The notes under the pieces are model-generated. The model was not told where the DNA came from. It did no database searches and was given only the letters and a program-made list of their open reading frames with translations. From NCBI GenBank assembly GCA_964564045.1, contig CAZLZP010000001.1, forward strand, positions 9,039 to 73,038: a DNA stretch of 64,000 nucleotides. The letters are read 5' to 3'. The DNA is from an uncultured Rickettsiales bacterium. Its GTDB lineage: Bacteria; Pseudomonadota; Alphaproteobacteria; Rickettsiales; UBA8987. Below, one piece after another: positions 8,635 through 50,241 of the stretch (positions are counted from its first letter, which is position 1; the number at the start of each line of letters is the position of its first letter). The position numbers and the translations under genes were made by a program.

Positions 8635-8638
8635 TTTA

Positions 8639-23067: not shown

Positions 23068-23080
23068 AGGTCACCATCAG

Positions 23081-24292: not shown

Positions 24293-24294
24293 AA

Positions 24295-25338: not shown

Positions 25339-25355
25339 AAATCATCTTTTATAAA

Positions 25356-26036: not shown

Positions 26037-26884
26037 TTAATCTTTCTATACGTAGTTTTATCAACCAGTTCAAATCTATCACATACATTATTCAGGCTTT
26101 CAGAATGGCCGATATATAATAAACCCCCGGGGGCCAGAACATCAGCGAATTTGTTGAACAGAACTTTCTGGGTTTCCTTAGTGAAATATATAACAACGTT
26201 ACGACAGAAGATTATATCGAACGGCCCTTTCAGCGGCCATGGCTCCACAAAATTAAGGCGCTTGAAATGTATAAGTTTTTGCAACTTAGGCGACATTTGC
26301 ATGGTGCTGTTCTTTTTATCTTCGGTAACGAAAAGCTCATAATAATCTGCAGGTATGTTCTCACCTTCATCAATTTTATATTCTCCGGCGGCACCGGTTG
26401 CCAGCATGTTGGTATCGATATCTGTTGCAAGTATCTTCGCATCCCAGCTATCTACATCACGCAGCACGGAACGAAGTACCATTGCTATGGAATATGGCTC
26501 CATACCAGCCGAACAGCCGGCCGACCATATCCTCAGCTTTTTTTGCGAAGCATGTTTTTTTATCATTTCCGGCAGACCGGTTTTTTTAAGATGATCGAAA
26601 TGGTGCATCTCGCGGAAGAACTTTGTAAGATTGGTGGTGACCGCATTCACGAAGTCTATTATCTCGGAACCGGCTTCATCACTGGTAACAAATTCTATAT
26701 ATTGCTTGAATGTTTTAAAGCCTATTTTGCGTATGCGTTTTGCGATACGGCCATAAACCATGGTTTTTTTGTGGGGGGCAATACTTATTCCGGTTTTTTC
26801 AAAGACCAGCTCGCGGATGATATTAAAATCATCATCGCTGAACTCAAACTCCATGGAGTTATTTTGTTGAGGAGCGGCTGCCAT
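26033..26884 (-). CDS. cheR: Chemotaxis protein methyltransferase
   Basis: 283 aa. N-terminal helical domain plus a SAM-MTase ('LRIWSAGCSAGMEPYS', 'IFCRNVVIYF'). Confidence 0.92.
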   Translation of the reverse strand: MAAAPQQNNSMEFEFSDDDFNIIRELVFEKTGISIAPHKKTMVYGRIAKRIRKIGFKTFKQYIEFVTSDEAGSEIIDFVNAVTTNLTKFFREMHHFDHLKKTGLPEMIKKHASQKKLRIWSAGCSAGMEPYSIAMVLRSVLRDVDSWDAKILATDIDTNMLATGAAGEYKIDEGENIPADYYELFVTEDKKNSTMQMSPKLQKLIHFKRLNFVEPWPLKGPFDIIFCRNVVIYFTKETQKVLFNKFADVLAPGGLLYIGHSESLNNVCDRFELVDKTTYRKIK

Positions 26885-26890
26885 ATTGCT

Positions 26891-27400
26891 CTATTTTGTA
26901 GCTGTATCTGCAGCTGTTAAGGTTTTTTTATCGAATAGATAATCTACATCAAGCAGAATAACCATTTTATCATCTTTAGATATAAGGCCATTAACATAGG
27001 CATCTTCAATTCCTGTATCCGCCGAAGAAGGAGAAGGTTTAATTTCTGCTTCAGGAACAGTAAGAATATCTGAAACAGCATCAACCAGTATGCCAATAAC
27101 CCTTGTGCCTATTGATATAACTATAACCACGTTCTTTTCTGTAGCGTTGGTTTTACCCTGGCCAAAACGCGTGCGAAGATCGAAGATAGGTATGACCAGA
27201 CCACGAAGATTTATAACACCAAGCATATATTCCGGAGAATTAGGTATGCGCGTAGCCTCATGCCAGCCGCGAATTTCCATTACCTTCATAATATCTACGC
27301 CGTATTCGTTCTTCTCTACTTTAAAAGTTAAATACTGACGTGTAGCCACCTTTTCCTGAGACTGTTTGCCCGCATAACCTATATTCATATTATTTTCCAT
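26891..27400 (-). CDS. cheW: Chemotaxis coupling protein
   Basis: 169 aa. 'YLTFKVEKNEYGVDI' and 'INLRGLVIPIFDLR' are typical CheW blocks. Confidence 0.92.
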   Translation of the reverse strand: MENNMNIGYAGKQSQEKVATRQYLTFKVEKNEYGVDIMKVMEIRGWHEATRIPNSPEYMLGVINLRGLVIPIFDLRTRFGQGKTNATEKNVVIVISIGTRVIGILVDAVSDILTVPEAEIKPSPSSADTGIEDAYVNGLISKDDKMVILLDVDYLFDKKTLTAADTATK

Positions 27401-27418
27401 AAAACCTCCTATGAGTTA

Positions 27419-29557
27419 TTAAGCCGCTTTTAAAAATTTATTGTCTAAGCCCATTTTTAGAATTTGGGCAACATCAAGTATCAGTGAAACATTACCGTCA
27501 CCCAATATCGTTGCACCGGAAACCCCATTCACATGGTCGGCGTTCTCTTCAAGATTTTTGATAACCACCTGCTGCTGACCGAGAAGATCGTTAACTATAA
27601 CACCCATTTTATCTCTGCCAGTTTCAACCAGAACTATTATAACTTTGTTAGGATCTACCTCGGCATTAGGTACGTTGAATATTTTATTCAAGTAAACAAC
27701 CGGCAAGAATTCACCACGAACATTTATAACATCACTACCGCTTTTAACACGCTGTATATCTGTGGATTTCAGGCACATTGTTTCAATGATGTTCGAAATA
27801 GGAATGATGTATTTTTCAGCACCCACCTGTATTACCATGCCATCAAGAATTGCAAGGGTAAGCGGAAGTGAGATAATGAATTTAGAGCCATGGCCGGGAT
27901 AGTTTATCATTTGTATCTCGCCGCCAAGATCTTTTATGTTCCTGTTCACAACATCCATACCCACGCCCCTGCCGGAAACATCTGTAACTTTTTCAGCGGT
28001 TGAGAAGCCAGCCGCAAAAATAAGATGATCTATCTCTTCAGGAGTAAGCTGGGCATCTGGCGCTACAACGCCTTTTTCTTTGGCCTTGCTTAGAACCCTT
28101 TCACGATTGATACCATTACCATCATCGGAAATTTCTATGATTATGCGACCACCGGAATTATCAGCCGAAAGGTAAATAACACCTTCCGCCGGCTTGCCTT
28201 TTGCAACCCTTGCATCTGGCATTTCAATGCCGTGATCAAGCGAGTTACGTATCATGTGGGTAAGTGGGTCAGACAATCTTTCGATAACAGTTTTATCGAT
28301 CTCGGTGTTCTCACCCTTCATTTCCAGACGTATCTGCTTATTAAGTTTTCGGGAAAGATCACGAACTATTCTTGGCATGCGTGAGAAAACAGTTTTAACC
28401 GGCTGCATGCGCACCGCCATAACAGCTTCCTGCATTTCACGCGTGTGGCGCGAAAGCTCGTTCACACCCTGCATCAGCCCTTCTAGATATTGCTGGGGAA
28501 CATCTTTCAAACGCTGCATTATCATTGCTTGGGTGATAACTAATTCACCCACCATGTTCACCATTCTATCTACTTTACTTATATCTACACGTATTGAAGT
28601 TGCGGCCTCATCTTTCTGAGGAGCAGCTGCAGCAACGGCAGCAGGAGCAGGTTTTGGAGCTTCAGCCTGTGCGGCAGCGGCGGCAACTATAGGCGCAGGA
28701 TCTTCGAATAAACCAAACGCGCCGCCAGAATCTTCTAAAGGATTCGCAGCCTTAGGTTCCTCGAATAAACCAAACGCACCGCCAGCATCTTCCAACGGAG
28801 AGCTAAATGATTTTGCCGATAAGGTACCTTCGCTTATAGTAAGCTTGCATTCATCTTCAACAAATTCAAACGCCTCTTTCATCACCGAGATATCTTCGGT
28901 AGTTGTGGCGTGAATATTCCATTTCAAATAACAATCTTCAACATCAAGATCGTAAATATCAGGCACCTGCGAATGATCTATCTCTACTTCTAATTTTGCC
29001 GCGCGTTGCAGTTCACGTATTATATATACAGGTTCATTGCCGCTCGCAAAAAGTTCACGGTTTGGTTTGAAATTTATTGTATAGGTTTTTTCAGATGAGG
29101 ATTTAGGAGCTTCAACCTTTGCTTCTGCCATTTTAGGGGCATCTTCAAGTTTTTTCCCGGCAGCACCTTTAGCACCAACTATTGCTTTAAGGTTGCCAAG
29201 CAGCTCATCTTCGAAGCCGGCAGGAGCTTCAACATTGTTTTTTGCAGCAAGTACAAGAGCCTTTACAACATCAACCGATTTTAAAAGCGCATCTACTATA
29301 TCAGAGCTTATTTCCATTTCATGCGTACGCAGCCCATCAAGCAAAAACTCAAGTATATGGGTGAAACCGACCAGACGTGTAAACCCGAATGCACCACCAC
29401 CGCCTTTAATAGAGTGAGCGCAGCGGAATATTGCATTTATATCTTCAATATCAACATTGGTTTGGTCAAGATTAAGCAGACGTTCTTCCATATCCTCAAG
29501 AAGCTCGTTCGCTTCCTGGATATACGTAGACTTGAACTGGTCCATATCTGATGACAT
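27419..29557 (-). CDS. cheA: Chemotaxis histidine kinase
   Basis: 712 aa. P1 HPt 'RCAHSIKGGGG', a P2-like domain, P3 dimerisation, the P4 HATPase ('DDGNGI', 'GRGVGMD') and a P5 CheW-like domain. Confidence 0.95.
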   Translation of the reverse strand: MSSDMDQFKSTYIQEANELLEDMEERLLNLDQTNVDIEDINAIFRCAHSIKGGGGAFGFTRLVGFTHILEFLLDGLRTHEMEISSDIVDALLKSVDVVKALVLAAKNNVEAPAGFEDELLGNLKAIVGAKGAAGKKLEDAPKMAEAKVEAPKSSSEKTYTINFKPNRELFASGNEPVYIIRELQRAAKLEVEIDHSQVPDIYDLDVEDCYLKWNIHATTTEDISVMKEAFEFVEDECKLTISEGTLSAKSFSSPLEDAGGAFGLFEEPKAANPLEDSGGAFGLFEDPAPIVAAAAAQAEAPKPAPAAVAAAAPQKDEAATSIRVDISKVDRMVNMVGELVITQAMIMQRLKDVPQQYLEGLMQGVNELSRHTREMQEAVMAVRMQPVKTVFSRMPRIVRDLSRKLNKQIRLEMKGENTEIDKTVIERLSDPLTHMIRNSLDHGIEMPDARVAKGKPAEGVIYLSADNSGGRIIIEISDDGNGINRERVLSKAKEKGVVAPDAQLTPEEIDHLIFAAGFSTAEKVTDVSGRGVGMDVVNRNIKDLGGEIQMINYPGHGSKFIISLPLTLAILDGMVIQVGAEKYIIPISNIIETMCLKSTDIQRVKSGSDVINVRGEFLPVVYLNKIFNVPNAEVDPNKVIIVLVETGRDKMGVIVNDLLGQQQVVIKNLEENADHVNGVSGATILGDGNVSLILDVAQILKMGLDNKFLKAA
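28697..28798 (-). repeat. In-frame tandem duplication (period 57 nt) inside cheA encoding PLED[AS]GGAFGLFE[ED]P twice
   Basis: The 45-nt cores at 28697-28741 and 28754-28798 are identical at 39 of 45 positions by my count. They lie in the P2-P3 linker. Confidence 0.85.
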
Positions 29558-29573
29558 AACTTCCTACTTGGAA

Positions 29574-29942
29574 TTATACGGGACAAACTTTTTTAACTAC
29601 CTCTACCAGTTTATCTGGCTGGAATGGTTTTACTATCCAACCTGTTGCACCGGCATTCTTTCCTTCCATTTTTTTATTTGCATCACCTTCCGTGGTAAGC
29701 ATAAGTATTGGAACAGTTGCACTTGAAGCATTTGCCCTAACGGCCCTTATCATATCCATACCATTCATGTTAGGCATGTTCAGATCGGTTATTATAACAT
29801 CAATTTTATTGGCCTTAACCACTTCTAAACCTTTTACGCCATCTTCCGCTTCAAGAACGGTGTAGCCAGCACCCTTAAGTGTAAAGCAAACCATCTCACG
29901 TATAGTTTTTGAATCATCTACTGTTAATGCCACCTTAGTCAT
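29574..29942 (-). CDS. cheY: Chemotaxis response regulator CheY (single REC domain)
   Basis: 122 aa. 'VDDS', the phospho-acceptor context 'VIITDLNMPNMNG', 'LTTEG' and 'IVKPF'. Confidence 0.93.
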   Translation of the reverse strand: MTKVALTVDDSKTIREMVCFTLKGAGYTVLEAEDGVKGLEVVKANKIDVIITDLNMPNMNGMDMIRAVRANASSATVPILMLTTEGDANKKMEGKNAGATGWIVKPFQPDKLVEVVKKVCPV

Positions 29943-29943
29943 A

Positions 29944-30297
29944 TCAATTGCTCCAACTTGTTAATTCTTTTGATAATCCTACATCATAAAAAGCTTTTTT
30001 GAAAGCTTCACTTGGTGATGCAAGTTTAAAACTTATTTTTGCCAACTCACAAGATTTAGCGAGCGAGATAATTATCTGGATACACGGCGTTGTAATTCTA
30101 TTGACCCCAGATGCATCAACCAGCATTCCTTTCTGGGCACTTTTTTCAAATAATTCTATCGCCTCTTTCTTCAGTTTCTCTGCGTAAGAGATATCAAGCA
30201 CCTCACGAAGCTTTAACTGTACACCACTAGATTTAGAAGCTGGCGCTTTAGCAACCTTGTTTAACTTCTTAACCTTCTTTTTAACTTTTGGCGCCAT
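29944..30297 (-). CDS. STAS-like small chemotaxis protein (position and shape of alphaproteobacterial CheS/CheX-orf2 type)
   Basis: 117 aa. A K-rich N-terminus is followed by a STAS-like core ('MLVDASGVNRITTPCIQIIISL'). It lies directly upstream of cheY-cheA. Confidence 0.55.
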   Translation of the reverse strand: MAPKVKKKVKKLNKVAKAPASKSSGVQLKLREVLDISYAEKLKKEAIELFEKSAQKGMLVDASGVNRITTPCIQIIISLAKSCELAKISFKLASPSEAFKKAFYDVGLSKELTSWSN

Positions 30298-30298
30298 A

Positions 30299-30859
30299 TT
30301 AAAATAACTCTACTTCTTCCTGCTTGTTAACTTCACAAACTACCGGGTTGTAGCCTATTTCGGAGCCATCTTTTATCAAACCCGAAGAAAGGAGGTAATT
30401 GATAAAAACTTCTCGTATCTCGCCCAACTTCATATTTTCGAGTATTTTTTTGCCCAGATCAACATCCACTCCTGAACCGAGAATGGAAGATTTTTTTGAA
30501 ACTTCATTAAGTACCTCAGAGATATTCTTAAGTATCACCAAGTTCTGTGAAAGCCTATCTTGGAACTGCAGGCCCATGATAGCCGAACCAAGACCCTTTT
30601 CTATCTCTTCGAATACCGGCTTAAGTTCCGGAGAGGTATTTTGCTTGCTTAGTATTTTAGTAGAGGCCGCAATTTTTGAAAAGCTGTCGCTTATCACAAG
30701 TATGTTCTCTTCAACAAGCTGGTTCAGTTTTGGTATAACATCTTCAATGATTGTAAAAACAGATGTGGCCGTTGCAAGTATCTGCGACAATTCCTTCAGT
30801 TTCTGGTTCTCGTCTGCCATTTTTTCCTGCCCACCGGCTTTTAAAGCTGTTACTGACAT
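30299..30859 (-). CDS. Small helical che-operon protein with a CheZ-like FQDxxxQ motif and an acidic ...ELF C-terminus
   Basis: 186 aa. 'IMGLQFQDRLSQNLV' (nt 30545-30568) and C-terminal 'KQEEVELF'. It is paralogous to the C-terminal ~100 aa of the MCP-like protein at 23081-24292. Confidence 0.45.
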   Translation of the reverse strand: MSVTALKAGGQEKMADENQKLKELSQILATATSVFTIIEDVIPKLNQLVEENILVISDSFSKIAASTKILSKQNTSPELKPVFEEIEKGLGSAIMGLQFQDRLSQNLVILKNISEVLNEVSKKSSILGSGVDVDLGKKILENMKLGEIREVFINYLLSSGLIKDGSEIGYNPVVCEVNKQEEVELF

Positions 30860-31215
30860 ACTTTGTTTATGGTTGCTATAAGGGTTTGAGGATTGAAAGG
30901 TTTTACTATCCAGCCGGTTGCACCAAGGGTTTTGCCGGTTTTTTTCTTGTCGTCACCGCCTTCAGTGGTAAGTACCAGTATAGGTGTGAATTTGAACTCT
31001 TCGGTAGCACGTAGTTTTTCAATAAGCTGAAAGCCATCCATGTTAGGCATGTTTATATCAGTTATTATAACATCGAACTTCTTGCCTTTAGACACTTTAA
31101 GGGCATCAACTCCATCTTCAGCTGTTACAACATCGAAATTAACTTCCTTCAGCGCCATAGAAACCATGTTTCTCATCGTGAAAGAGTCGTCTACCACTAA
31201 AGCAATTTTAGCCAT
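30850..31215 (-). CDS. cheY: Second CheY-type single-domain response regulator
   Basis: The likely start is 'MAKIALVVDDS' at 31215, with AAGGGA upstream; the ORF-track start at 31257 adds 14 unlikely residues. Motifs 'VIITDINMPNMDG' and 'IVKPF'. Confidence 0.9.
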   Translation of the reverse strand: MAKIALVVDDSFTMRNMVSMALKEVNFDVVTAEDGVDALKVSKGKKFDVIITDINMPNMDGFQLIEKLRATEEFKFTPILVLTTEGGDDKKKTGKTLGATGWIVKPFNPQTLIATINKVCQ

Positions 31216-31353
31216 ACATATTCCCTTTGTATTATATTTATAGTTAAAGGATAACACGAATTTATGAAGAATTACAACAATGTAAATGTGTAACAGATGA
31301 TTAAGGCCTGGGGTTAATATAATTATGTCACATTGAGTTTTTTTGACACAAAC

Positions 31354-32268: not shown

Positions 32269-32917
32269 TTATTTTCTTTAAAAGTTTCTCTGCCGCAATC
32301 CTTTCAGCCTCTTTGCGTGAAGATGCAACATGTTTAACCGAATATTTATCAACTGATAGCACTATTTCTATTTGCGGTTCGTGCGATGGGCCTGTCATTG
32401 AAAGAACTTCGTATTTTGGAAGCCCCAGACCTTTTGCCTGCGCCCATTCCTGAAGTTTGGATTTAGGGTCCTTCGGTGGCTTCTGCATATCTGAGATAAA
32501 CTTGGAAAAGAATTTATTTATGAAGTCTCTAGCAGCATCCATACCGCCATCAAGATATATCGCCGCCGTTAAAGACTCTAAAGCATTTTCAAGGTTTGCC
32601 TTGTTTTCACGCCCGCCTATCTGCGCTTCGCCGGTACCCAGTATTAAATATTCACCCAGAGAGATATCTTTGGCAATTTTACAAAGACTTTCACGACATA
32701 CTATTGCAGCCCTGCGTTTTGCAAGCTTGCCCTCATTCTCATCAGGATAGTTCTTATAAAGAATATCTGAGACTAAAAGATTAAGTACTGAATCACCCAA
32801 GAATTCCAGCCTTTCGTAATCAAGCGAGGTTTTGTTTTTTTTGGAACTTGGATGAGTGAGAGACTGCTTGAAAAGCTTCTGATCTTTGAATTTATAACCA
32901 ATTATGTTTTCAAGCAT
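32255..32917 (-). CDS. rnc: Ribonuclease III
   Basis: 220 aa. The signature 'ERLEFLGDSVL' plus a C-terminal dsRBD. Confidence 0.95.
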   Translation of the reverse strand: MLENIIGYKFKDQKLFKQSLTHPSSKKNKTSLDYERLEFLGDSVLNLLVSDILYKNYPDENEGKLAKRRAAIVCRESLCKIAKDISLGEYLILGTGEAQIGGRENKANLENALESLTAAIYLDGGMDAARDFINKFFSKFISDMQKPPKDPKSKLQEWAQAKGLGLPKYEVLSMTGPSHEPQIEIVLSVDKYSVKHVASSRKEAERIAAEKLLKKINEKI

Positions 32918-33681
32918 TATTCAGAATGATTCTTTGTAAGGTCTAATAAAAATCTGCCTTCCCTGAATGATAACAGCCAATCCCAAATTCGCAAGAACTT
33001 GGATCTATTTGAAAAGAATACAATCTCAGCCTTGCCGATAAGGTTCTCTTCCGGAACATAACCAACGGAAAGCCTGCTATCTGAACTATTATCACGGTTA
33101 TCACCCATCAAGAAGTAGTTATTTTCGGGAACCACAAATTCCCTTGTGTCATCAGCCGGCCCATTCTCTACCTCATCAAGAACTTCGTGATCTACCCCAT
33201 TCGGAAGACTTTCTATATATCTTTTTATAGTGACAGGGTTTCCATCTGGGCCTTCATCAATAAAATCTTCTATCCTTCTCTGAGGAATAAGGCCGCCATT
33301 AAGATAAAGCCTGCCGCCTCTCATCTGTATTCTGTCACCAGGCATACCTATAAGCCTTTTGATAAAATCTGTCGACGGATCACCCGCTGGGCGGAAAACT
33401 ATTATATCTCCGCGTACAGGCTTGTGCCCACCAATACGTCCTTCAAAATAGTGGTATTTATAGCCAAGCGGAAAACTATACCGGCTGAAGCCATATTCAA
33501 ATTTTGAGATGAATATGTAATCACCAATAAGCAGAGTTGATTTCATCGAGCTTGAAGGTATATGCCTAGGCGAATACAGAACAGCCCTGAAGCACATTGG
33601 TAGCACAACACATACTAATATTATAAAGGTCCAGCTCTCGAAAAAACTTTTCGGCTTCTTATAATTTATATCATCGATCAT
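32917..33681 (-). CDS. lepB: Signal peptidase I
   Basis: 254 aa. TM anchor, catalytic Ser box 'PSSSMKSTL', Lys box 'FIKRLIGMPGD' and 'GDNRDNSSDSR'. Confidence 0.93.
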   Translation of the reverse strand: MIDDINYKKPKSFFESWTFIILVCVVLPMCFRAVLYSPRHIPSSSMKSTLLIGDYIFISKFEYGFSRYSFPLGYKYHYFEGRIGGHKPVRGDIIVFRPAGDPSTDFIKRLIGMPGDRIQMRGGRLYLNGGLIPQRRIEDFIDEGPDGNPVTIKRYIESLPNGVDHEVLDEVENGPADDTREFVVPENNYFLMGDNRDNSSDSRLSVGYVPEENLIGKAEIVFFSNRSKFLRIWDWLLSFREGRFLLDLTKNHSE

Positions 33682-33697
33682 TATTTATTACGCCTGC

Positions 33698-34552
33698 TTA
33701 TAATTTACTAAAGGCCTCTTCAGCCTCTTTGAAGGTTGGGCGTACACCAGATGGAATTATTTTTCTAGCAAATTCTGCAGATATTGCAGGCGCATTACCC
33801 TGTACATGCGCAAGCAGGCCTGTTTTAATAACATCAAGGTATTTGTGGTGCATTTCGTAGTATTTACCTATAGAGCTGGCAAAGGGCTGTACAAAACAAT
33901 ATGATATAAGTACACCCATGAATGTACCAACAAGCGCCGCACCAATCAGGCCACCCAAAATTTCAGGTGGTTCAGAGATAGATCCCATGGTGATTATTAC
34001 CCCAAGAACCGCAGCCACGATACCGATCGCCGGGAATGCATCACCCATTATCTGGATAGCATGTGGAATAGCATGAGCTTCTGTAACACCAGCTTCTAAC
34101 TCGGCCAACATCATATCTTCAAGGGTATATTTGTTGTCGACACCCATGGTCATTACACGAACATAATCACAGAAGAATTCCACCGCATGATGATCTTCCA
34201 GAAAATGTGGGAATTTAGCAAAGATATCACTACCCTCAGGGTTTTCAATGTGAGCTTCTACCTCAAGCATTCCTTTGGTTTTCATGAATTTAAAGATTGT
34301 ATAAAGGAAGGAGAGAAGTTCAATGTAGCTATCTTTACTGATAGGATGGCCACCAACCATAAGTTTTTTAAAACTACCAAGCGCACCTTTAATTACATAC
34401 GAAGGGTTACCAATAACGAACGAACCAACGGCAGCGCCAACTATTATCAGATATTCATTTGGCTGGAAAAGTACGGCAAGGTTACCATGGTGCATTAAAT
34501 AGCCACCGATAACAGAACCAAAAACAATAATTATGCCGAGTATTACTCTCAT
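33698..34552 (-). CDS. motA: Flagellar stator protein MotA
   Basis: 284 aa. It is colinear with E. coli MotA as I recall it ('GGYLMHHGNLAVLFQPNEYLIIVGAAVGSFVIGN', 'GDAFPAIGIVAAVLGVI'). No motB is adjacent. Confidence 0.92.
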   Translation of the reverse strand: MRVILGIIIVFGSVIGGYLMHHGNLAVLFQPNEYLIIVGAAVGSFVIGNPSYVIKGALGSFKKLMVGGHPISKDSYIELLSFLYTIFKFMKTKGMLEVEAHIENPEGSDIFAKFPHFLEDHHAVEFFCDYVRVMTMGVDNKYTLEDMMLAELEAGVTEAHAIPHAIQIMGDAFPAIGIVAAVLGVIITMGSISEPPEILGGLIGAALVGTFMGVLISYCFVQPFASSIGKYYEMHHKYLDVIKTGLLAHVQGNAPAISAEFARKIIPSGVRPTFKEAEEAFSKL

Positions 34553-34624
34553 GAGAACAACAGAAAAATTTTACAAAACCAAGTTTTGCAGGAGCGATGG
34601 AATTCGTCAAGGACAAGTTATGAT

Positions 34625-35470
34625 TTATTTATCGCCAGCTAGTACAATGGCTATATCTGGTGCATTTTCGTCTTTCATGCCGATAACGTTATAACCAGCA
34701 TCTACGTGCATTATTTCGCCAGTTACGCCAGAGCCAAGATCAGACATAAGGAAAACGGCAGCACCACCAACATCTTGCAATGTGATGTTACGCTTCAATG
34801 GAGCATTATATTCGTTCCATTTAAATATTAACCTGAAATCACCAATACCAGATGCAGCAAGGGTTTTAACCGGGCCTGCAGATATACAGTTAACACGAAT
34901 ACCCTGAGAGCCAAGATCCTTAGCAAGATATTTAGTGCTCATTTCAAGCGCAGCTTTGGCAACGCCCATTACGTTGTAATGCGGAATAACCTTTTCACCA
35001 CCGTAATAAGAAAGGGTTAGCAAACAACCACCATTTGGCATTATTTCAGAAGCATATTTTGCAACTTCAGTGAATGAGAAGCACGATATATGCATGGTAT
35101 TCAGGAAATTACCCAGTGAAGTATCAGCATACCTGCCGCGAAGTTCATTCTTATCAGAGAAACCAATTGCATGAACAACGAAATCTACACTTCCCCATTT
35201 ACTTTTCAAAGTATCGAATACGGCTTTAATAGATTCAGTTTTTGTTACATCGCATTCAACAAGAAAATCTGACCCAACTGATTTAGCAAGAGGTTCAACC
35301 CTTTTCTGCAACGCTTCGCCTTGATATGAAAATGCAAGTTGGCCACCTTGTGCAGCAACAGCCTGAGCTATGCCCCACCCGATAGAACGTTCATTTGCAA
35401 CGCCCATTATAAGGCCCCTTTTTCCTTGAAAAAGATTGCCCTTTATAAAATTATCTTCCTGTTCCGACAT
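34625..35470 (-). CDS. fabI: Enoyl-[acyl-carrier-protein] reductase (NADH)
   Basis: 281 aa. 'GKRGLIMGVANERSIGWGIA' and the Y-x6-K region 'YNVMGVAKAALE'. Confidence 0.93.
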   Translation of the reverse strand: MSEQEDNFIKGNLFQGKRGLIMGVANERSIGWGIAQAVAAQGGQLAFSYQGEALQKRVEPLAKSVGSDFLVECDVTKTESIKAVFDTLKSKWGSVDFVVHAIGFSDKNELRGRYADTSLGNFLNTMHISCFSFTEVAKYASEIMPNGGCLLTLSYYGGEKVIPHYNVMGVAKAALEMSTKYLAKDLGSQGIRVNCISAGPVKTLAASGIGDFRLIFKWNEYNAPLKRNITLQDVGGAAVFLMSDLGSGVTGEIMHVDAGYNVIGMKDENAPDIAIVLAGDK

Positions 35471-35495
35471 AATATTATTAGTTGATTAAAGAATA

Positions 35496-35999
35496 TTAAT
35501 TATTAACGATTCTCCACGTACCATCAGGCTGACGGCAGGCATTCCCAAATGCGTTCTGTGATTTACCACCTACAACGATAGTTTGAGAGAATTCACGGCA
35601 GAACTGGCCAGGAGCCGGTTCGTAGTTACGAGTAGGTGCGATAGTTCCGCTGTTACCAGTATCTGGATTTATCCAGCGAGAAACAGTACCACGAGATGTG
35701 CTTTCAAGCGCATTCTGGGTGGTTGAATTTAAATACTGCATATCTGCCCTGTCAAGAGATTCACCAATAGAAGCTCCAGCCATAGAACCAAGTAATGCAC
35801 CACCGATAGTTGCCGCTGTGTTACCCTTACCTTTACCCATATTGCTGCCGATTATACCGCCGCCAACACCGCCTAATACCGTGCCAACCTGTTGTTTGCT
35901 ATAGCCAGTTCCCATAGTACCCTGACCAGGACCGTACTGAGGAGAGCATGCTGATGCTACCAGAATTAATGATATTGCCATTGCGTAAAGTTTTCTCAT
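35496..35999 (-). CDS. Glycine-zipper surface lipoprotein (17-kDa-antigen-like)
   Basis: 167 aa. Lipobox 'LVASAC', glycine zipper 'GGVGGGIIGSNMG...IGGALLGSMAG' and a C-terminal Cys-containing domain. Confidence 0.7.
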   Translation of the reverse strand: MRKLYAMAISLILVASACSPQYGPGQGTMGTGYSKQQVGTVLGGVGGGIIGSNMGKGKGNTAATIGGALLGSMAGASIGESLDRADMQYLNSTTQNALESTSRGTVSRWINPDTGNSGTIAPTRNYEPAPGQFCREFSQTIVVGGKSQNAFGNACRQPDGTWRIVNN

Positions 36000-36044
36000 G
36001 AATACCTCTTTAGTTAATTTTGTGTCTATCTTATCAAGATAATT

Positions 36045-37025
36045 TTATATTTTGTCAATGTCTATATAGTCAAGGTCTTCTTTATTAAGCTCTGGCTCTA
36101 TAACCTTAACCTCTGTCTGAGAGAAATTAACACCTTGCTTCATAAGGAATTCTCTTATTCCAATAATTCTTGTCAGGCCCATCTTTCTTGGATCAGCACC
36201 AAGATCACGCGCTGAGGTATATGCCTTAAGGGATATTTTTTGTTGTTTATTCGATTTTAACAGCCTTACAATAGTAAGCAGGTTGGTTTTATCCTTCTCA
36301 CTTAATTCTGTTTCTTCTTTTGAGTATGATAAACGCATCAGATTAGTTGCTGCCTTTGCAGGCTCAGGCGTGGTTTCAGATATTGCCTGTCTTTCCTGCT
36401 CTGCCTTCTTTTCAGTATCATTCTTATCTGCGGCGGCGGCTTTTGTTGGATCTATTTCCGTTTGCCCTTCAAATCTGGCTCCTTCAGGTATTTCTTCTGT
36501 TGACTCTCCAGCATCTTCAGTATTTTTCTGTATCTCTGTGTTATATTTTGTGGCCTGCTCTTTATCAAGAGTGGTTACCTCGCCCTGCTGCTCGGCTTTA
36601 TACTGATCTTCTGTAAAGTTTATCTGGATAACATCTTCTTTTTTATTTGTACGCAGATCTACGTCGTCGCTCTTCGGTTTGGAACCACTTTGCTCTTCCC
36701 TGATGAATGCCGGAACAGCACCAGGTGTTGGCTGATAAACAGCAGGTGGCAAAGTAAACACACCAGAATCCGGATCAGCACTTTGATAATTATACTGATC
36801 TTGCGGCTGTATCATTTGCTGTTGGAACTGTTGCTGCTGCTGAAGCTCCAGTCTTTCCTGTTCGTTGTTCCTTAAGAATGCCGGAAGCGAATTCACATCT
36901 TGCGGCTGTTGTTGTAACCCACCCTGCCCCTGCGCTGCTTCCTGTCTTAAATAAGCAGGGATACTTTGTGCCATTACATCAGTAGAAAACGAAAAGATAA
37001 GAATTGTAAATATTATTTGTAGCAT
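36045..37025 (-). CDS. Exported Q/E-rich protein with three 'PA[FY][LI]R' motifs and a degenerate OmpA-C-like C-terminus
   Basis: 326 aa. Hydrophobic N-terminus ending 'DVMAQ'; motifs IPAYLR, LPAFLR and VPAFIR. The C-terminal 'ISLKAYTSARDLGADPRKMGLTRIIGIREFLMKQGV' loosely fits the OmpA-like pattern. The function is unknown. Confidence 0.6.
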   Translation of the reverse strand: MLQIIFTILIFSFSTDVMAQSIPAYLRQEAAQGQGGLQQQPQDVNSLPAFLRNNEQERLELQQQQQFQQQMIQPQDQYNYQSADPDSGVFTLPPAVYQPTPGAVPAFIREEQSGSKPKSDDVDLRTNKKEDVIQINFTEDQYKAEQQGEVTTLDKEQATKYNTEIQKNTEDAGESTEEIPEGARFEGQTEIDPTKAAAADKNDTEKKAEQERQAISETTPEPAKAATNLMRLSYSKEETELSEKDKTNLLTIVRLLKSNKQQKISLKAYTSARDLGADPRKMGLTRIIGIREFLMKQGVNFSQTEVKVIEPELNKEDLDYIDIDKI

Positions 37026-37804
37026 GGCGCAACTAACTCTCTTAGTTTTTCAAATAGATTTTCATTACCAGCAATTATACTGCCAGATTCAATGAAGTTA
37101 TCACCACCATCAATTTCACTAACCCTTCCGCGAGCTTCGGTTACAAGTAGCGTACCAGCGGCTATATCCCAGGGCTTAAGATTAGCATGCCACATACCAT
37201 CAAGCTTGCCGGCAGAAACAAAGGCCAGTTCCATTGCCGCAGAACCAAGTATGCGAATATTGGTAGTAAATTTGGTCAGAGAATTTATATCCTGTTTCCT
37301 TCTTTCAGGATTATACTTCGATATGTAAGATGCGAATGAACTTTCTTCGATATTATCACGCGCCGAAACCTTAAGCCTACGGCCATTTACCGTGGCACCC
37401 TCACCTCTTTCAGCAAGATATAGCTCATCAAGCACCGGAGCATATATACCAGCAGCAACCATTTGCTTTTTACCGTTGGGAAGTTTTTCCTGCAGGCCCA
37501 CCGATATACAAAAATATGGTATGCCGTGAATAAAATTGGTGGTACCATCTATTGGGTCGATGATGAAAGTGAATTTATCGTCACCCTGAATAAAACCGCG
37601 CTCTTCCGACATTATGGAATATGAAGGATATATAGTTTGGAATTCGTTGATAAGTATCTTTTCTACTTTCAGATCAGCCGAAGTAACGAAGTTACTAGGA
37701 CCCTTACGTGATACCTGAAGATTTTCTACTTCGCCATAGTCGCGCAGAAGAATTTTACCGGCCTTTAATAAAGTTTTCTCGATTATATTTAACGTACCAC
37801 TCAT
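37013..37804 (-). CDS. suhB: Inositol monophosphatase family protein
   Basis: 263 aa. 'SEE', 'IDPIDGTTNF' and 'WDIAAG' motifs. Confidence 0.88.
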   Translation of the reverse strand: MSGTLNIIEKTLLKAGKILLRDYGEVENLQVSRKGPSNFVTSADLKVEKILINEFQTIYPSYSIMSEERGFIQGDDKFTFIIDPIDGTTNFIHGIPYFCISVGLQEKLPNGKKQMVAAGIYAPVLDELYLAERGEGATVNGRRLKVSARDNIEESSFASYISKYNPERRKQDINSLTKFTTNIRILGSAAMELAFVSAGKLDGMWHANLKPWDIAAGTLLVTEARGRVSEIDGGDNFIESGSIIAGNENLFEKLRELVAPCYK

Positions 37805-37827
37805 AAATCCTTTATTGAATAAAAATG

Positions 37828-38388
37828 TTATTCCGCTCTTTTAACGTAGGTTGAATCATTCGTATTAACTATTACCCTAACACCTGCTTCGATGAATTGA
37901 GGAACCATTACACGCATGCCGTTAGAAAGTTTTGCAGGTTTGTTCGAGCCAGCTGCTGTCTGGCCTTTTACAACCGCATCAGCCTCTACCACTTCTAATG
38001 TAACGTGTGTTGGAACATATGCCGCTATCATTTGATCCTGGGCAAATTCAACCATTATATCCATGCCATCTGTAAGGAAAATTTCCTGACCGCTGAAATA
38101 AGATTTGTTAACCTCGATCTGGTCGTAAGTTTTTTTGTCCATTAAAGTAATGGTATCTCCGGCTGAGAACAGATATTGGTATTCCCTCGATTCAAAGTGA
38201 GCAATATCAACATTTTCATCAGAACGCAAACGTTCGTTCGCTTTGGTTCCCTGCTTAAGTTCTTTCATTTCCACCTGAACGAATGCTCCGCCCTTACCAG
38301 GTTTAACATGTTCAGTTTTCAGAACTCTCCACAGACCATTTCTGTAGTTCAAAATATTACCAACTCTTAAATCGTTCGCTATTGCCAT
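37828..38388 (-). CDS. efp: Elongation factor P
   Basis: 186 aa. The 'KPGKGGAFVQVEMK' loop and a three-domain length. Confidence 0.95.
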   Translation of the reverse strand: MAIANDLRVGNILNYRNGLWRVLKTEHVKPGKGGAFVQVEMKELKQGTKANERLRSDENVDIAHFESREYQYLFSAGDTITLMDKKTYDQIEVNKSYFSGQEIFLTDGMDIMVEFAQDQMIAAYVPTHVTLEVVEADAVVKGQTAAGSNKPAKLSNGMRVMVPQFIEAGVRVIVNTNDSTYVKRAE

Positions 38389-43139: not shown

Positions 43140-43157
43140 AATAAATATTTATACCCC

Positions 43158-43186
43158 TTTAAAAACTTCAAATTAAGTGCTATAAT
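43158..43186 (+). promoter_or_regulatory. Candidate sigma70-type promoter for ssrA
   Basis: TTTAAA (43158-43163), a 17-nt spacer, then a perfect TATAAT (43181-43186) just upstream of the tmRNA acceptor piece. Confidence 0.35.
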
Positions 43187-43194
43187 AACCCTTG

Positions 43195-43510
43195 CCGCAA
43201 GGCTATGGTGATAAATGTCTTCTCGGAATAGACAGATTGGACCCGGGGGCAGTACCCGGCGCCTCCACCAAAGTTCACTTGAGAATTAAAGTGAATTTCG
43301 GCGGGGGCGAATAGGCTCGACAAGTGTAATAAAGGTTTAGATTTTACCCAGTATGATTCCACTGCAAAGGGTTATAATTACAAATGCAAACGATAACTTC
43401 GCTGCATCTGATGAACTTGCTATGGCTGCGTAGTCTCTCTTTAGAGATAAAACAGTTTAAGTTCATCTAGGGGCCCGCGGGGAGCCTGGCAACAGAATCT
43501 CCGCATTTTT
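43195..43510 (+). ncRNA. ssrA: Two-piece (circularly permuted) tmRNA
   Basis: The acceptor piece ends in 'CGCCTCCACCA' (to 43270). A spacer hairpin follows (TTCACTT/AAGTGAA). The coding piece starts 'GGGGGCGAATAGGCTCGAC' at 43303 and pairs with the 3' strand, giving a G3:U pair. The tag ORF GCA AAC GAT AAC TTC... at 43386-43430 encodes ANDNFAASDELAMAA, followed by TAG. The 5' boundary is approximate. Confidence 0.85.
43477..43510 (+). terminator. Intrinsic terminator of ssrA
   Basis: Stem GCGGGGA (43477-43483) / TCTCCGC (43498-43504) with one G:U pair, followed by TTTTT (43506-43510). Confidence 0.6.
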
Positions 43511-43838
43511 CTGAATAGATCTCCAAAATTATTTCTCGAATTTATTTTTTGCAACCCTGCGTTTAAAGAAAATTTTTCAAGGATTTTTTCCAAAAATTTT
43601 GTTACACGGTTAAGTGATTGAATCTTTACAAATTTGAAAAGATTTTCATATATCTTCTGAGCGCCGCCTTGTTCCGTGAAACAACCAATTTTGCTTGCTT
43701 ATACGTGTCAATAAAATTCGCAAAAATAATTTTTTAATTATTCTGTTTACGCACTACATTTTTTCGTTAGATTGAATTTCTCGAAAAAAATTTTTTAGGT
43801 TTTGTTCAGGGGATTTTTTAAAAATATTATTTTGTAAA

Positions 43839-45158
43839 ATGATAACAGGGGATATAAACAGCTACGCAGAATTTGAGAAGATCTGGCAAAGAATATGCGC
43901 CAAGTTCAGCTTCAATATTGGCGTTTCAACTTTTAATAGTTGGATAAAGCCCCTTGCTTTCTGCGGGTTTGACGGCGGCGTTGTAACCTTAAAGGCCCCT
44001 TCTCGCTTCATCAAAGACTGGGTAGTTTCGAACTTCGGTGAACAGCTTGAAGTTTATTTCCGCGAAGAAAATCCTTCTTTCCTTGGTTTAGATATTCAGG
44101 TTGATACAAGAAGAGATATTGAAACAACAGAAGCGCACGTTGCAGCCATACAATCACGCGAGGATGAAAACAAAATTATAAATAATACCGCTTATTTTGA
44201 AAGCAATCTTGATAACAGATTCAAGTTTGAAAATTTCATTACCGGAGATTCAAACAACCTGGCATTTACCGCCTCACAAAAATTAGCAAATGGTGAAGAC
44301 CTTGGCGCCAATACATTAATGATATATGGCAGTGTTGGCTCAGGCAAAACTCACCTACTACAATCTATAGCACATTATATAAGGGAAAATTATCCCCAGA
44401 AGAAGGCCCTTTACCTTTCGGCCGAAAAATTCATGTTCCAGTTCGTAAAAGCCATTCGCGAGAGAGATATGGTTTCCTTCAAAGAATATCTGCGCGCTGC
44501 CGACATATTACTTATAGATGATATTCAGTTCATCTGCGGCAAGGTTGTGCTTTCTGCAAATCGTGCGCCGAGTGACTTCACCGATATTGATGAGCGTATA
44601 AAATCTCGTCTTGGCTGGGGTTTGGTTGCTGATATTAAAAAACCTGATCTAAACCTGCGCCTGGATATAGTAAGATCTAAAGCCAGGTTATTGAATGTTG
44701 AACTAAATGATAATATAGTTCAGTTCCTTGCTGAAAATATAAATACCAATGTGCGTGAGCTTGAAGGCGCACTTATAAAGGTTGTTGCACAATCACGGTT
44801 AACAGGCGCTAATATTACCATCGATTTCGCCATAGAAGTATTGAAAGACCTGCTTCGCGGCGTTCGTAAAGAAATAACCATTGAAGAGATAAAGCGTACT
44901 GTTTGCAGCAAGTATGACATAAAAATGTCAGAGATAGATTCCGCAAGAAGAGACAGGAAGGTATCTCGCCCAAGACAAGTTGCCATGTATCTTTCTAAAA
45001 ATCTTACAACAAAAAGCCTGCCGGAAATTGGCCGTAACTTTGGTGATAAGAACCATACAACTGTTATCCACGCCATAAAGAACATTGAAAAACTTAAAGC
45101 GCTTGAGCCTGAGATAGATAACCGCATAGCAGAACTTACCAGAATGCTTGCCTCTTAG
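43839..45158 (+). CDS. dnaA: Chromosomal replication initiator DnaA (with an apparent internal ~20-aa deletion)
   Basis: 439 aa. Walker A 'GSVGSGKTH', Walker B 'LLIDDIQF', '[10 protein letters not shown]', 'NVRELEGAL' and the domain IV block '[12 protein letters not shown]...[11 protein letters not shown]'. The '[10 protein letters not shown]'-type helix is absent. Confidence 0.88.
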   Translation: [439 protein letters not shown]

Positions 45159-49040: not shown

Positions 49041-49366
49041 TAGAATTTCTTAGGTTTGTATAATTTTGTAACTTCAACCCCAACCTTTTCAGACTCCGGA
49101 GAAAGAACAACCTCACACTCCGCAATTTTATTTCCGTCAACTATCAGATCAAGCGATTCGGCCCTTCCCTTTCCAAGTTCAACTATTGAACCGCGGGTTA
49201 TTTTAAGATACTGGCCTATAGGCATTTTAATTTTGCCCAGCAATACCTTCATGTTGAGTTTTATATCACCAAAACCCTGCAGGCTGGATAAAATTTCTGC
49301 CGGCTGCATAGGTGCGGCAGTTTCTTGTTGATTATTCTCTTTATTTTCTTCACTCATATTAGTCAA
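49040..49366 (-). CDS. fliN: Flagellar motor switch protein FliN (SpoA domain)
   Basis: 108 aa. 'IKLNMKVLLGKIKMPIGQYLKITRGSIVELGKGRAESLDLIVDGNKIAECEVV' matches the FliN C-terminal domain. Confidence 0.85.
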   Translation of the reverse strand: MTNMSEENKENNQQETAAPMQPAEILSSLQGFGDIKLNMKVLLGKIKMPIGQYLKITRGSIVELGKGRAESLDLIVDGNKIAECEVVLSPESEKVGVEVTKLYKPKKF

Positions 49367-49386
49367 AATACACTAAATATTATTTT

Positions 49387-50172: not shown

Positions 50173-50241
50173 TATTTTTTTTACCTATTTATAATATTTA
50201 GATATATATTCAGAATAGGGGAATGGTGTTTTTTCATTAAA

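What the first reader, a model, noticed from the sequence alone, without database searches (positions are those of the whole stretch)
36696..36965. Apparently exported protein with three FtsZ C-terminal-peptide-like motifs
The 326-aa ORF (36045-37025) contains 'SIPAYLRQE' (aa 21-29), 'SLPAFLRNNE' (46-55) and 'AVPAFIREEQ' (103-112), embedded in Q-rich spacers. The conserved C-terminal peptide of FtsZ, the hub that binds FtsA, ZipA, ZapD, MinC and others, has the core D-I-P-A-F-L-R-K/R-Q in E. coli and DIPTFLRNRN in B. subtilis. Three copies of [ILV]-P-A-[FY]-[LI]-R within 90 residues is unlikely to be noise. Yet the protein starts with a hydrophobic signal-like segment ('...FSFSTDVMA|QS') and ends in a degenerate OmpA-C-like domain. 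The motifs would therefore sit outside the cytoplasm, away from the cell's own FtsZ partners. There are four possibilities: a periplasmic ligand that recognises the same motif; an N-in topology that places the motifs in the cytoplasm, making a divisome-tethering envelope protein; an exported FtsZ-tail mimic aimed at another cell's or organelle's division machinery; or coincidence.
Basis: partly seen in the sequence, partly recalled or inferred. Interest (0 to 1): 0.65.

Follow-up and report, generated by a model that had tools for sequence, protein, structure and literature searches.

The report
Exported OmpA-like protein with FtsZ-tail-like motifs
A fast-evolving, signal-peptide-bearing envelope protein of uncultured flagellated Rickettsiales has a floppy glutamine-rich arm with three conserved "PAF" peptides whose core is identical to the FtsZ tail; the evidence points to a lineage-specific periplasmic docking motif rather than a cell-division mimic.

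Summary
The 326-aa ORF lies on the minus strand (36045-37025). It carries IPAYLR, LPAFLR and VPAFIR, the only three matches to [ILV]PA[FY][LI]R in the six-frame translation of the window.

The protein has four parts:
- a cleavable-type signal peptide (VMA|Q);
- a Q-rich, largely disordered arm of about 110 aa holding the motifs;
- an acidic linker;
- a C-terminal OmpA-C-like fold in which the canonical Asp is Ser and the Arg is kept.

The P-A-F cores are conserved islands in 17 orthologues. This protein evolves much faster than its neighbours (27-56% identity against 58-88%). The module is confined to one clade of Rickettsiales MAGs, about 8 clusters among 1.84 billion representatives. Syntenic orthologues elsewhere are short (146-275 aa) and carry one VPASM[QR] or no motif.

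The hexamer is identical to real Rickettsiales FtsZ tails: VPAFLR occurs in 25 of 111. The full FtsZ signature is not reproduced by any of the three motifs, namely acidic at -1, Arg, basic +1 and a terminal position. No homology to FtsZ linkers extends beyond the core.

Best reading: a soluble periplasmic tether of the RmpM type, with a multivalent peptide arm plus a cell-wall-binding-type domain and an unknown partner. FtsZ mimicry is unlikely because of the compartment. Interest is modest.

The parts
36045..37025 (-). Whole ORF, 326 aa plus stop. Its ATG overlaps the end of the upstream inositol-monophosphatase (suhB-like) gene by 13 nt. The 17-kDa-antigen lipoprotein gene starts 45 nt downstream.
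36969..37025 (-). Signal peptide, aa 1-19 (MLQIIFTILIFSFSTDVMA|Q). The h-region is ~13 residues, with V at -3 and A at -1. There is no lipobox; the protein has no Cys.
   Evidence: Sequence. Hydropathy: this is the only hydrophobic segment. The pattern 'small-x-A|Q' is conserved in the 14 N-terminally complete long-family members and in tier-2 relatives. No SignalP run was possible.
36945..36962 (-). Motif 1, IPAYLR (aa 22-27). Family consensus is [ND]-V-P-A-F-L-[RQ]-x-E-A. It is the best conserved of the three and the most FtsZ-tail-like.
   Evidence: V13/14, P14, A14, F12/Y2, L14, R10/Q3/K1, E14, A13
36870..36887 (-). Motif 2, LPAFLR (aa 47-52). Family consensus is x-P-A-F-L-Q-x-E. The residue before Pro varies and Arg is usually Gln. 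It starts the only moderately confident helix of the arm (aa 49-71).
36699..36716 (-). Motif 3, VPAFIR (aa 104-109). Family consensus is G-D-[VT]-P-A-F-hydrophobic-x-Q-E. P105 and F107 are invariant.
36636..36968 (-). Q-rich (20% Gln) arm, aa 20-130, largely low-confidence or disordered in the AlphaFold2 model. It holds the three motifs plus the conserved islands YNYQSADP (36771-36794) and TLPPAVYQPxPG (36720-36755).
36351..36635 (-). Acidic/Thr/Ala-rich linker, aa 131-225. Conserved islands are EDVIQINFxxDQYK (36597-36638), EIPEGAxFEG (36465-36494) and PEPxK (36354-36371). The first island appears to correspond to the 'DVIVLDxxSLPW' segment of the short orthologues; this correspondence is judged by eye.
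36048..36350 (-). OmpA-C-like domain, aa 226-326 (block-mean pLDDT 77-92). Ser271 (36213-36215) replaces the canonical Asp of 'HTD'. Arg286 (36168-36170) is the conserved Arg. The last strand, LDYIDIDKI, is nearly invariant in the family.
35496..35999 (-). Downstream neighbour: a 17-kDa-antigen-type lipoprotein with a glycine zipper plus PF16998. It is adjacent in all 12 related Rickettsiales-type loci examined. It is a candidate partner by adjacency only.

Best explanation
The gene encodes a Sec-exported, soluble periplasmic protein. It has no lipid anchor, no beta-barrel and no second hydrophobic segment.

Its C-terminal OmpA-C-like domain sits at or on the peptidoglycan layer. Its ~200-residue disordered N-terminal arm displays several short conserved peptides. 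The three proline-capped 'P-A-F-hydrophobic' motifs are helix-initiating docking peptides. I propose they bind, multivalently, a hydrophobic groove on another envelope component.

Candidate partners are an outer-membrane protein or lipoprotein complex, or a ring-shaped machine. The arrangement would work like Neisseria RmpM, in which an N-terminal peptide holds OMP complexes and the C-terminal OmpA-like domain holds the wall.

The arm is a clade-specific expansion of an ancestral short protein consisting of signal peptide, short linker and OmpA-like domain. The identity of the hexamer with the FtsZ tail is convergence on a common type of ligand, or coincidence. It is not mimicry.

Shown:
- exported-type N-terminus;
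- OmpA-like fold;
- low-confidence, disordered-looking arm;
- motif conservation;
- restriction of the arm to one clade;
- synteny.

Inferred:
- periplasmic residence;
- binding function of the motifs;
- peptidoglycan association;
- identity of the partner (unknown).
For: Export signal:
- A single N-terminal h-region is followed by V-M-A|Q.
- The same 'small-x-A|Q' occurs in 14/17 long-family members (the other three are N-terminally truncated on short contigs) and in the short relatives.

OmpA-like domain:
- The family profile hits Pal 4g4v at E=7.8e-5.
- AF2 block-mean pLDDT is 77-92 for aa 226-326.
- Foldseek top hits are OprF, Pal, MotB and DotK at E 1e-6 to 1e-4, prob 1.00.

Arm:
- pLDDT is mostly below 55. 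Predicted helices start exactly one residue after each motif's Pro: H24-33, H49-71, H106-111.

Conservation:
- P/A/F are invariant or nearly so in all three positions across 14-16 orthologues.
- This holds although X is the fastest-evolving gene of the block, at 27-56% identity against 58-88% for efp, suhB, 17kDa, fabI, motA and lepB.

Clade restriction:
- An exhaustive profile search of 1.84e9 representatives gives only 8 clusters at E<1e-30, all full or near-full length.
- Positional orthologues in other Rickettsiales-type contigs are 146-275 aa and have one VPASM[QR] or no motif.
- P0011 mixes three PAF-type motifs (two PAFL, one PAFM) and two PASMQ copies. The motif is therefore a family-specific, copy-number-variable element.

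RmpM precedent:
Against: - No partner is identified.
- The canonical peptidoglycan-binding Asp is replaced by an invariant Ser, so wall binding itself is unproven.
- The signal peptide lacks a basic n-region in most members, and no dedicated predictor could be run.
- The candidate partner by adjacency, the 17-kDa lipoprotein, shows no co-variation. Presence of its glycine zipper does not track presence of the motif.
- The exact hexamer identity with Rickettsiales FtsZ tails, including IPAYLR, is a striking coincidence under this explanation.
Confidence: 0.55

Rival explanations
1. FtsZ-tail mimic. The PAF peptides bind proteins that normally recognise the FtsZ C-terminal peptide (FtsA, MinC, ZapD-like, FzlC-like and others). 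This could happen in the producer, through an unusual topology or an internal start. It could also happen in another cell or organelle after release.
For: - The core hexamer is identical to real Rickettsiales FtsZ tails: VPAFLR in 25/111 and IPAYLR in 1/111.
- Motif 1 resembles the E. coli tail DIPAFLRKQAD over ~10 residues; compare NVPAFLRNEAA.
- I374 and L378 are the critical FtsZ residues (PMC4117426). Their equivalents are kept in motif 1.
- Multivalency is known to matter for FtsZ-tail ligands (general knowledge).
Against: - A conserved cleavable-type signal peptide and an OmpA-like domain place the arm outside the cytoplasm.
- The internal Met18 is not conserved.
- No single motif position reproduces the FtsZ signature. 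In FtsZ, -1 is D/E in 111/111, Arg (or Lys) in 111/111, and +1 is K/R in 110/111, followed by the C-terminus.
- In X, motif 1 has an acidic -1 in 4/14 and a basic +1 in 0/14. Motif 2 has Q instead of R in 11/15 and a variable residue before Pro. Motif 3 has R/K in 2/16.
- Orthologues have VPASM[QR], in which the key Phe is replaced by Ser, or no motif.
- There is no homology to FtsZ linkers: 31.6 bits against 29.3 for the reversed control.
- No route is known from a bacterial periplasm to an organelle matrix.
Confidence: 0.04
2. Partner-specific version. X and the adjacent 17-kDa-antigen lipoprotein form a two-gene equivalent of YiaD-type proteins (glycine-zipper lipoprotein fused to an OmpA-like domain). 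The PAF arm docks on the lipoprotein to tether the outer membrane to the wall.
For: - The two genes are adjacent, on the same strand and 40-65 nt apart in all 12 related Rickettsiales-type loci.
- The 17-kDa protein matches the glycine-zipper half of NCBIfam YiaD_Gzip_OmpA at E=2.8e-8.
- X's domain resembles YiaD/DotK-labelled chains, which also have Ser in place of the Asp.
Against: - The adjacency holds equally for short orthologues that lack PAF motifs.
- Presence of the glycine zipper does not track presence of the motif. Examples: P0019 and P0028 have PASM but no zipper hit; P0020 and P0029 have no motif but do have a zipper.
- The whole block efp..lepB is syntenic, so adjacency may only reflect frozen gene order.
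- In the more distant L009 genome the 17-kDa gene is not adjacent.
Confidence: 0.15
3. No external partner. The motifs act within the protein or the material. They could be helix caps that dock back on the protein's own OmpA-like groove (auto-inhibition). Alternatively they could be 'stickers' in a Q-rich sticker-and-spacer region that self-associates in the periplasm.
For: - Aromatic motifs (PAF, YNY, VYQP) are spaced by Gln-rich segments.
- The peptidoglycan-binding Asp is lost, which leaves the groove free for another ligand.
- Copy number varies from 0 to 5.
Against: - The full-length AF2 model gives low confidence throughout the arm and pTM 0.33, so there is no sign of a docked state. Model coordinates and PAE could not be inspected.
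- Strict conservation of flanking residues (E and A after motif 1, G-D before motif 3) looks more like a specific interface than generic stickiness.
Confidence: 0.15
4. Flagellar motor accessory. X would be a soluble periplasmic OmpA-like protein that supports the stator, as MotY does, in these flagellated Rickettsiales.
For: - An orphan motA (TIGR03818, 347 bits) lies two genes downstream in every related locus.
- Chemotaxis and fliN genes are in the window.
- MotB and LPHT-ring chains appear among the structural neighbours.
Against: - The motA proximity is part of a frozen housekeeping block (fabI, lepB, rnc, era).
- The more distant relative in L009 keeps the suhB linkage but has no motA nearby.
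- There is no MotB-type transmembrane helix or conserved Asp; D16 is not conserved.
- No family model for MotY, MotB or MotC is matched.
Confidence: 0.08

Closest known systems
OmpA-C-like / Pal-type peptidoglycan-associated domain (Pfam PF00691)
   Same: The C-terminal ~100 aa adopt the same fold. The conserved Arg of the L-S-x-x-R-A motif is kept (Arg286). The last strand DYIDIDKI occupies the place of 'NRRVEI'; that last point is judged by eye.
   Different: The window protein scores just under the Pfam cut-off (25.3 against 27.2). The Asp that binds diaminopimelate is an invariant Ser. There is no lipobox (unlike Pal), no beta-barrel (unlike OmpA/OprF) and no transmembrane helix or plug (unlike MotB).
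Neisseria RmpM (class 4 protein / PIII)
   Same: The architecture and proposed logic match. Both are exported proteins without a membrane anchor. Both have an N-terminal peptide region that associates with outer-membrane protein complexes, a low-complexity hinge and a C-terminal OmpA-like wall-binding domain (PMC4226279).
   Different: The N-terminal regions show no sequence relationship. RmpM was not among the PDB sequence hits at E<=1. The arm here is much longer and Q-rich, with three repeated motifs. Its binding function is inferred, not shown.
FtsZ conserved C-terminal peptide (E. coli DYLDIPAFLRKQAD; Rickettsiales I-[HQY]-[DE]-[IV]-P-[ATS]-F-L-R-K-K)
   Same: The core [IV]-P-A-F-L-R is identical. 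The motif lies in a disordered region, and a helix is predicted to start right after the Pro.
   Different: The motif here is internal, not C-terminal. It sits behind a signal peptide and is followed by acidic or polar rather than basic residues. The acidic -1 and the Arg are not jointly conserved. It is present in three copies, and orthologues have PASM variants or lack it. There is no homology to the FtsZ linker.
YiaD / DotK (LphA)-type OmpA-like lipoproteins
   Same: The OmpA-like domain has Ser in place of the canonical Asp (…SYSS…). In YiaD a glycine zipper is associated with the domain, which parallels the adjacent 17-kDa glycine-zipper lipoprotein here.
   Different: X is not a lipoprotein. 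The matches are weak (E=0.059 by sequence). There is no type IVB secretion context.

Membership tests
OmpA family (PF00691) / OmpA-C-like fold | Sequence score at or above Pfam gathering threshold | tested here: not met
   25.3 bits against a cut-off of 27.2 for the window protein. Nine of 16 family members do carry a precomputed PF00691 hit.
OmpA family (PF00691) / OmpA-C-like fold | Beta-alpha-beta-alpha-beta-beta OmpA-like fold | tested here: met
   AF2 block-mean pLDDT 77-92 for aa 226-326. Foldseek hits to OprF 5u1h, Pal 4g4w/4b5c and MotB 3s06 at E 1e-6 to 1e-4, prob 1.00. The family profile hits Pal 4g4v at E=7.8e-5.
OmpA family (PF00691) / OmpA-C-like fold | Asp + Arg pair that binds the diaminopimelate of peptidoglycan | tested here: inconclusive
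   Arg286 is kept and invariant. The Asp position is an invariant Ser271 (alignment to Pal). Binding itself was not testable.
Pal (peptidoglycan-associated lipoprotein) | Lipobox with an acylated Cys after the signal peptide | tested here: not met
   The protein has no Cys. The cleavage motif is of the signal peptidase I type, V-M-A|Q.
MotB / stator B subunit | N-terminal transmembrane helix with an invariant Asp, plus a plug | tested here: not met
   The hydrophobic stretch is ~13 residues and is followed by a cleavage site. D16 is not conserved among orthologues. No MotB model is matched.
FtsZ C-terminal peptide | Core [IV]-P-x-F-[LIM]-[RK] | tested here: met
   All three copies in the window protein match. 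In the family, motif 1 keeps the core in 11/14 members, while motifs 2 and 3 mostly lose the basic residue. The same hexamers occur in 111 Rickettsiales FtsZ tails.
FtsZ C-terminal peptide | Full signature: acidic -1, Arg, basic +1, at the extreme C-terminus after the FtsZ linker | tested here: not met
   FtsZ: -1 D/E in 111/111, +1 K/R in 110/111, and the chain ends 2-5 residues later. X: motif 1 has an acidic -1 in 4/14 and a basic +1 in 0/14, and motif 3 has R/K in 2/16. All copies are internal. There is no FtsZ domain and no homology to the linker.
FtsZ C-terminal peptide | Cytoplasmic location | tested here: not met
   A conserved signal-peptide-type N-terminus and a periplasmic-type domain. 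This is a prediction from sequence features only.
FtsZ C-terminal peptide | Binds FtsA/ZipA/MinC/ZapD-type partners | not testable with these tools
   No multimer prediction or binding assay was available.
RmpM-type periplasmic tether | Exported, unanchored protein with an N-terminal peptide region, hinge and C-terminal OmpA-like domain | tested here: met
   Architecture; description of RmpM from PMC4226279.
RmpM-type periplasmic tether | N-terminal region binds outer-membrane protein complexes | not testable with these tools
   Inference only.
RmpM-type periplasmic tether | Sequence homology to RmpM | tested here: not met
   The solved RmpM C-terminal domain (known from the literature) was not among the PDB sequence hits at E<=1 for the family profile.

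The most novel reading that the evidence does not exclude
The PAF peptides are genuine FtsZ-tail mimics displayed outside the producer's cytoplasm. After release or surface exposure by these protist-associated or free-living Rickettsiales, the multivalent arm would engage an FtsZ-tail receptor. That receptor would belong to another division machinery, such as a host organelle that still divides with FtsZ, or a competing bacterium. Alternatively, an as yet unknown periplasmic protein would read the same code as the cytoplasmic FtsZ partners, coupling the envelope to the divisome from the outside.
Probability: 0.04. Interest if true: 0.85.

Novelty: new variant of a known kind. Interest (0 to 1): 0.33.

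Why it matters
If the best reading is right, this is one more lineage-specific envelope tether. It also gives a clean example of conserved short linear motifs in a disordered periplasmic arm. Such motifs have been little studied in the bacterial periplasm.

It is also a caution. A perfect six-residue match to a famous motif can arise in the wrong compartment.

Only if the peptides really bind FtsZ-tail receptors would this bear on cell division or on symbiont-organelle interactions. Practically, the family offers a defined peptide (N-V-P-A-F-L-R-N-E-A) with which to fish for an unknown envelope partner in environmental Rickettsiales.

Tried and rejected
1. A profile search with the N-terminal arm alone in the word-indexed database was swamped by Gln-rich candidates. 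It returned only one family member and was uninformative.

2. I looked for known repeat or domain families in the arm. Pfam and NCBIfam at E<=1 gave nothing credible: Pilus_CpaD 0.051 and Apocytochrome f 0.067.

3. I tested derivation from an FtsZ linker plus tail. BLAST of 14 arms against 120 Rickettsiales FtsZ C-terminal regions gave 31.6 bits at best, against 29.3 for the reversed control. Rejected.

4. I tested the 17-kDa glycine zipper as the partner through presence/absence correlation across 9 distinct loci. There was no correlation.

5. I tried to find this clade's own FtsZ in two ways.
   - tblastn against all held loci gave no hit.
   - A contig-length fingerprint applied to the FtsZ search matched none of the 120 listed hits to the contigs that carry X.
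   Rickettsiaceae-type FtsZ tails were used as a proxy instead.

6. Internal start at Met18, which would give a cytoplasmic protein beginning MAQSIPAYLR. Rejected, because Met18 is not conserved and the hydrophobic N-terminus is.

7. MotB identity was rejected: no conserved Asp or transmembrane helix.

8. The promoter/terminator scan found nothing above shuffled expectation.

9. The AFDB Foldseek library was unavailable.

10. Literature searches for a periplasmic FtsZ-tail mimic or a VPAFLR motif found nothing relevant.
Full report
**1. What is there**

The finding lies in a 326-aa ORF on the minus strand, window 36045-37025. The three peptides are present exactly as described:
- IPAYLR, aa 22-27, DNA 36945-36962;
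- LPAFLR, aa 47-52, DNA 36870-36887;
- VPAFIR, aa 104-109, DNA 36699-36716.

The pattern [ILV]PA[FY][LI]R occurs three times in the six-frame translation of all 64 kb, and all three are in this ORF. None of 20,000 composition-preserving shuffles of the protein reached three; the mean was 5e-05. Three copies in one protein are an internal repeat, so the statistics show that the motif is real. They do not show that its likeness to FtsZ is meaningful.

**2. Anatomy**

- Residues 1-19 are the only hydrophobic segment. The h-region is about 13 residues, too short for a membrane anchor. It ends in V-M-A|Q, a signal peptidase I-type site.
- There is no Cys, so no lipobox.
- Residues 20-130 are 20% Gln and mostly of low confidence in an AlphaFold2 model built on the family alignment.
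- The three predicted short helices start one residue after each motif's proline: H24-33, H49-71, H106-111.
- Residues 131-225 are an acidic linker.
- Residues 226-326 form a confident OmpA-C-like domain. Block-mean pLDDT is 77-92. Foldseek hits OprF, Pal, MotB and DotK at E 1e-6 to 1e-4. The family profile hits Pal 4g4v at E=7.8e-5.
- By sequence the window protein falls just under Pfam's OmpA cut-off, at 25.3 against 27.2 bits.
- In the alignment to Pal, the canonical Asp of 'HTD' is an invariant Ser (S271) and the canonical Arg is kept (R286).

**3. Family and context**

The word-indexed search found 16 relatives, and the exhaustive profile search added one more. Among 1.84 billion representatives only 8 clusters score below E 1e-30, all matching the profile over its full or nearly full length. 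The genome hits are uncultured Rickettsiales MAGs. The window itself has 41% GC and carries chemotaxis, motA and fliN genes. That fits the flagellated environmental Rickettsiales described in PMC10847448.

Gene order is frozen in all 12 related loci: efp - suhB - X - 17-kDa-antigen lipoprotein - fabI - motA - lepB (- rnc - era where the fetched locus extends that far). The X start overlaps the end of suhB.

Within this block X is by far the fastest-evolving gene, at 27-56% identity against 58-88% for its neighbours.

**4. Are the motifs the conserved islands?**

Yes, for the core:
- Motif 1 is [ND]-V-P-A-F-L-[RQ]-x-E-A: V 13/14, P, A and L 14/14, F 12 / Y 2, R 10 / Q 3 / K 1, E 14/14, A 13/14.
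- Motif 2 keeps P-A-F-L. The residue before Pro varies and position +4 is Gln in 11/15.
- Motif 3 is G-D-[VT]-P-A-F-hydrophobic-x-Q, with P and F invariant.

The fully FtsZ-like hexamer in all three copies is a peculiarity of the window protein and of its relative P0003 in two of its three copies.

The arm has further conserved islands: YNYQSADP, TLPPAVYQPAPG, EDVIQINFxDDQYK, EIPEGAKFEG and PEPxK.

**5. The wider family changes the picture**

Positional orthologues in other Rickettsiales-type contigs are only 146-275 aa. They consist of a signal peptide, a short linker with a 'DVIVLDxxSLPW' segment, and the same OmpA-like domain ending in DYIDIDK.
- Four of them carry a single VPASM[QR] or TPASML directly after the cleavage site: P0018, P0019, P0027 and P0028.
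- Others have no such motif: P0020, P0023, P0026, P0029 and the L006 ORF.
- One long member, P0011, combines three PAF-type motifs (two PAFL, one PAFM) with two PASMQ copies.

The element is therefore a family-specific motif P-A-[FSY]-[LMIV]-[QR] whose copy number varies from 0 to 5. The Q-rich three-motif arm is a clade-specific expansion. No known repeat family matches it.

**6. Comparison with real FtsZ tails**

The E. coli tail is DYLDIPAFLRKQAD, with I374 and L378 critical for ZipA, FtsA, MinC and SlmA (PMC4117426).

I retrieved 120 Rickettsiaceae-type FtsZ proteins. Of these, 111 end in I-[HQY]-[DE]-[IV]-P-[ATS]-F-L-R-[KR]-K, two to five residues from the C-terminus. The hexamer counts include IPAFLR 58, VPAFLR 25 and IPAYLR 1. 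The hexamer identity with X is therefore exact.

The rest of the signature is not shared:

| Feature | FtsZ tails | X motif 1 | X motif 2 | X motif 3 |
|---|---|---|---|---|
| Acidic -1 | 111/111 | 4/14 | 1/15 | 14/16 |
| R/K after F-L | 111/111 | 11/14 | 3/15 | 2/16 |
| Basic +1 | 110/111 | 0/14 | 5/15 | 0/16 |

No single motif position carries the full code. All three are internal, and acidic or polar residues follow them.

BLAST of 14 arms against the FtsZ linker-plus-tail regions gave at best 31.6 bits, against 29.3 for reversed queries. There is no sign that the arm was captured from ftsZ.

**7. Mechanism**

The best-supported reading is a Sec-exported, unanchored periplasmic protein. Its OmpA-like domain sits at the wall. 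Its disordered arm presents several docking peptides to another envelope component.

The closest functional precedent is Neisseria RmpM. Its short N-terminal part associates with outer-membrane protein complexes while its C-terminal OmpA-like domain binds peptidoglycan (PMC4226279). This is a statement about how X may work, not about membership. There is no sequence relationship in the N-terminal parts, and RmpM was not a sequence hit.

The partner is unknown. The adjacent 17-kDa glycine-zipper lipoprotein is attractive, for two reasons:
- the two genes are adjacent in every related locus;
- YiaD-type proteins fuse a glycine zipper to an OmpA-like domain.

However, presence of the zipper does not track presence of the motif. 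I rate that version at 0.15.

A flagellar accessory role rests only on proximity to motA within a housekeeping block, and it fails the MotB feature tests.

**8. FtsZ mimicry**

It cannot be excluded by sequence alone, but it requires the arm to meet cytoplasmic proteins. Several observations argue against that in the producer:
- the signal peptide is conserved;
- there is no conserved internal start (Met18 varies);
- the domain is of a periplasmic type;
- flank residues are degenerate relative to the FtsZ tail.

Action on a foreign or organellar division machine has no known delivery route. I give it about 0.04.

**9. Verdict**

A functional FtsZ link is not supported.

The protein is a new variant of a known kind, an OmpA-C-like envelope protein with a lineage-specific multivalent peptide arm. 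Interest is modest at 0.33. The main open items are the identity of the partner and whether the S271 domain still binds peptidoglycan.

Noticed in passing
Not in the window: FtsZ proteins P0162-P0281 retrieved: Rickettsiaceae-type FtsZ linkers carry conserved islands besides the terminal peptide. An internal E-E-[IV]-P-x-[FY] motif, a second tail-like element, occurs in 80/120. A 'SLLxRMWNSLK' amphipathic-looking segment occurs in at least 60/120.
   Followed up: partly
window 33698-34552 (-): A flagellar stator gene motA (TIGR03818, 347 bits) has no adjacent motB. It sits between fabI and lepB. The same arrangement is found in all related loci.
   Followed up: partly
window 32917-38388 (-) and loci L001-L008, L010-L013: X is the fastest-evolving gene in a frozen block efp-suhB-X-17kDa-fabI-motA-lepB. 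In every locus its start codon overlaps the end of suhB, by 13 nt in most and 25 nt in L013.
   Followed up: yes
window 35496-37025 (-): X and the 17-kDa lipoprotein gene are in the same reading frame. They are separated by one stop codon and 15 sense codons. This is probably trivial.
   Followed up: no
window 2573-9580 (-): An operon resembling the Bat aerotolerance operon: MoxR AAA ATPase, DUF58, two vWA proteins and BatD.
   Followed up: no
window 22765-31257 (-): A complete chemotaxis cluster: two CheY-like receivers, CheA, CheW, CheR, CheD, CheB, an MCP and a STAS protein. This was read from the translations and from the Pfam labels of the syntenic locus.
   Followed up: no
window 49040-52092: A fliN-like gene lies back-to-back with a prepilin peptidase (A24) and a secretin. 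The same trio occurs in L007.
   Followed up: no
window 43140-45158: dnaA (43839-45158, +) is preceded by a ~700-bp gap with no ORF of 90 aa or more, after a dprA-like gene. This is a possible replication origin region.
   Followed up: no
L006 3920-4411 (+): In the lineage with the shortest X (146 aa, no PAF), the adjacent 17-kDa-antigen homologue lacks the glycine-zipper segment. Other loci break the correlation.
   Followed up: yes
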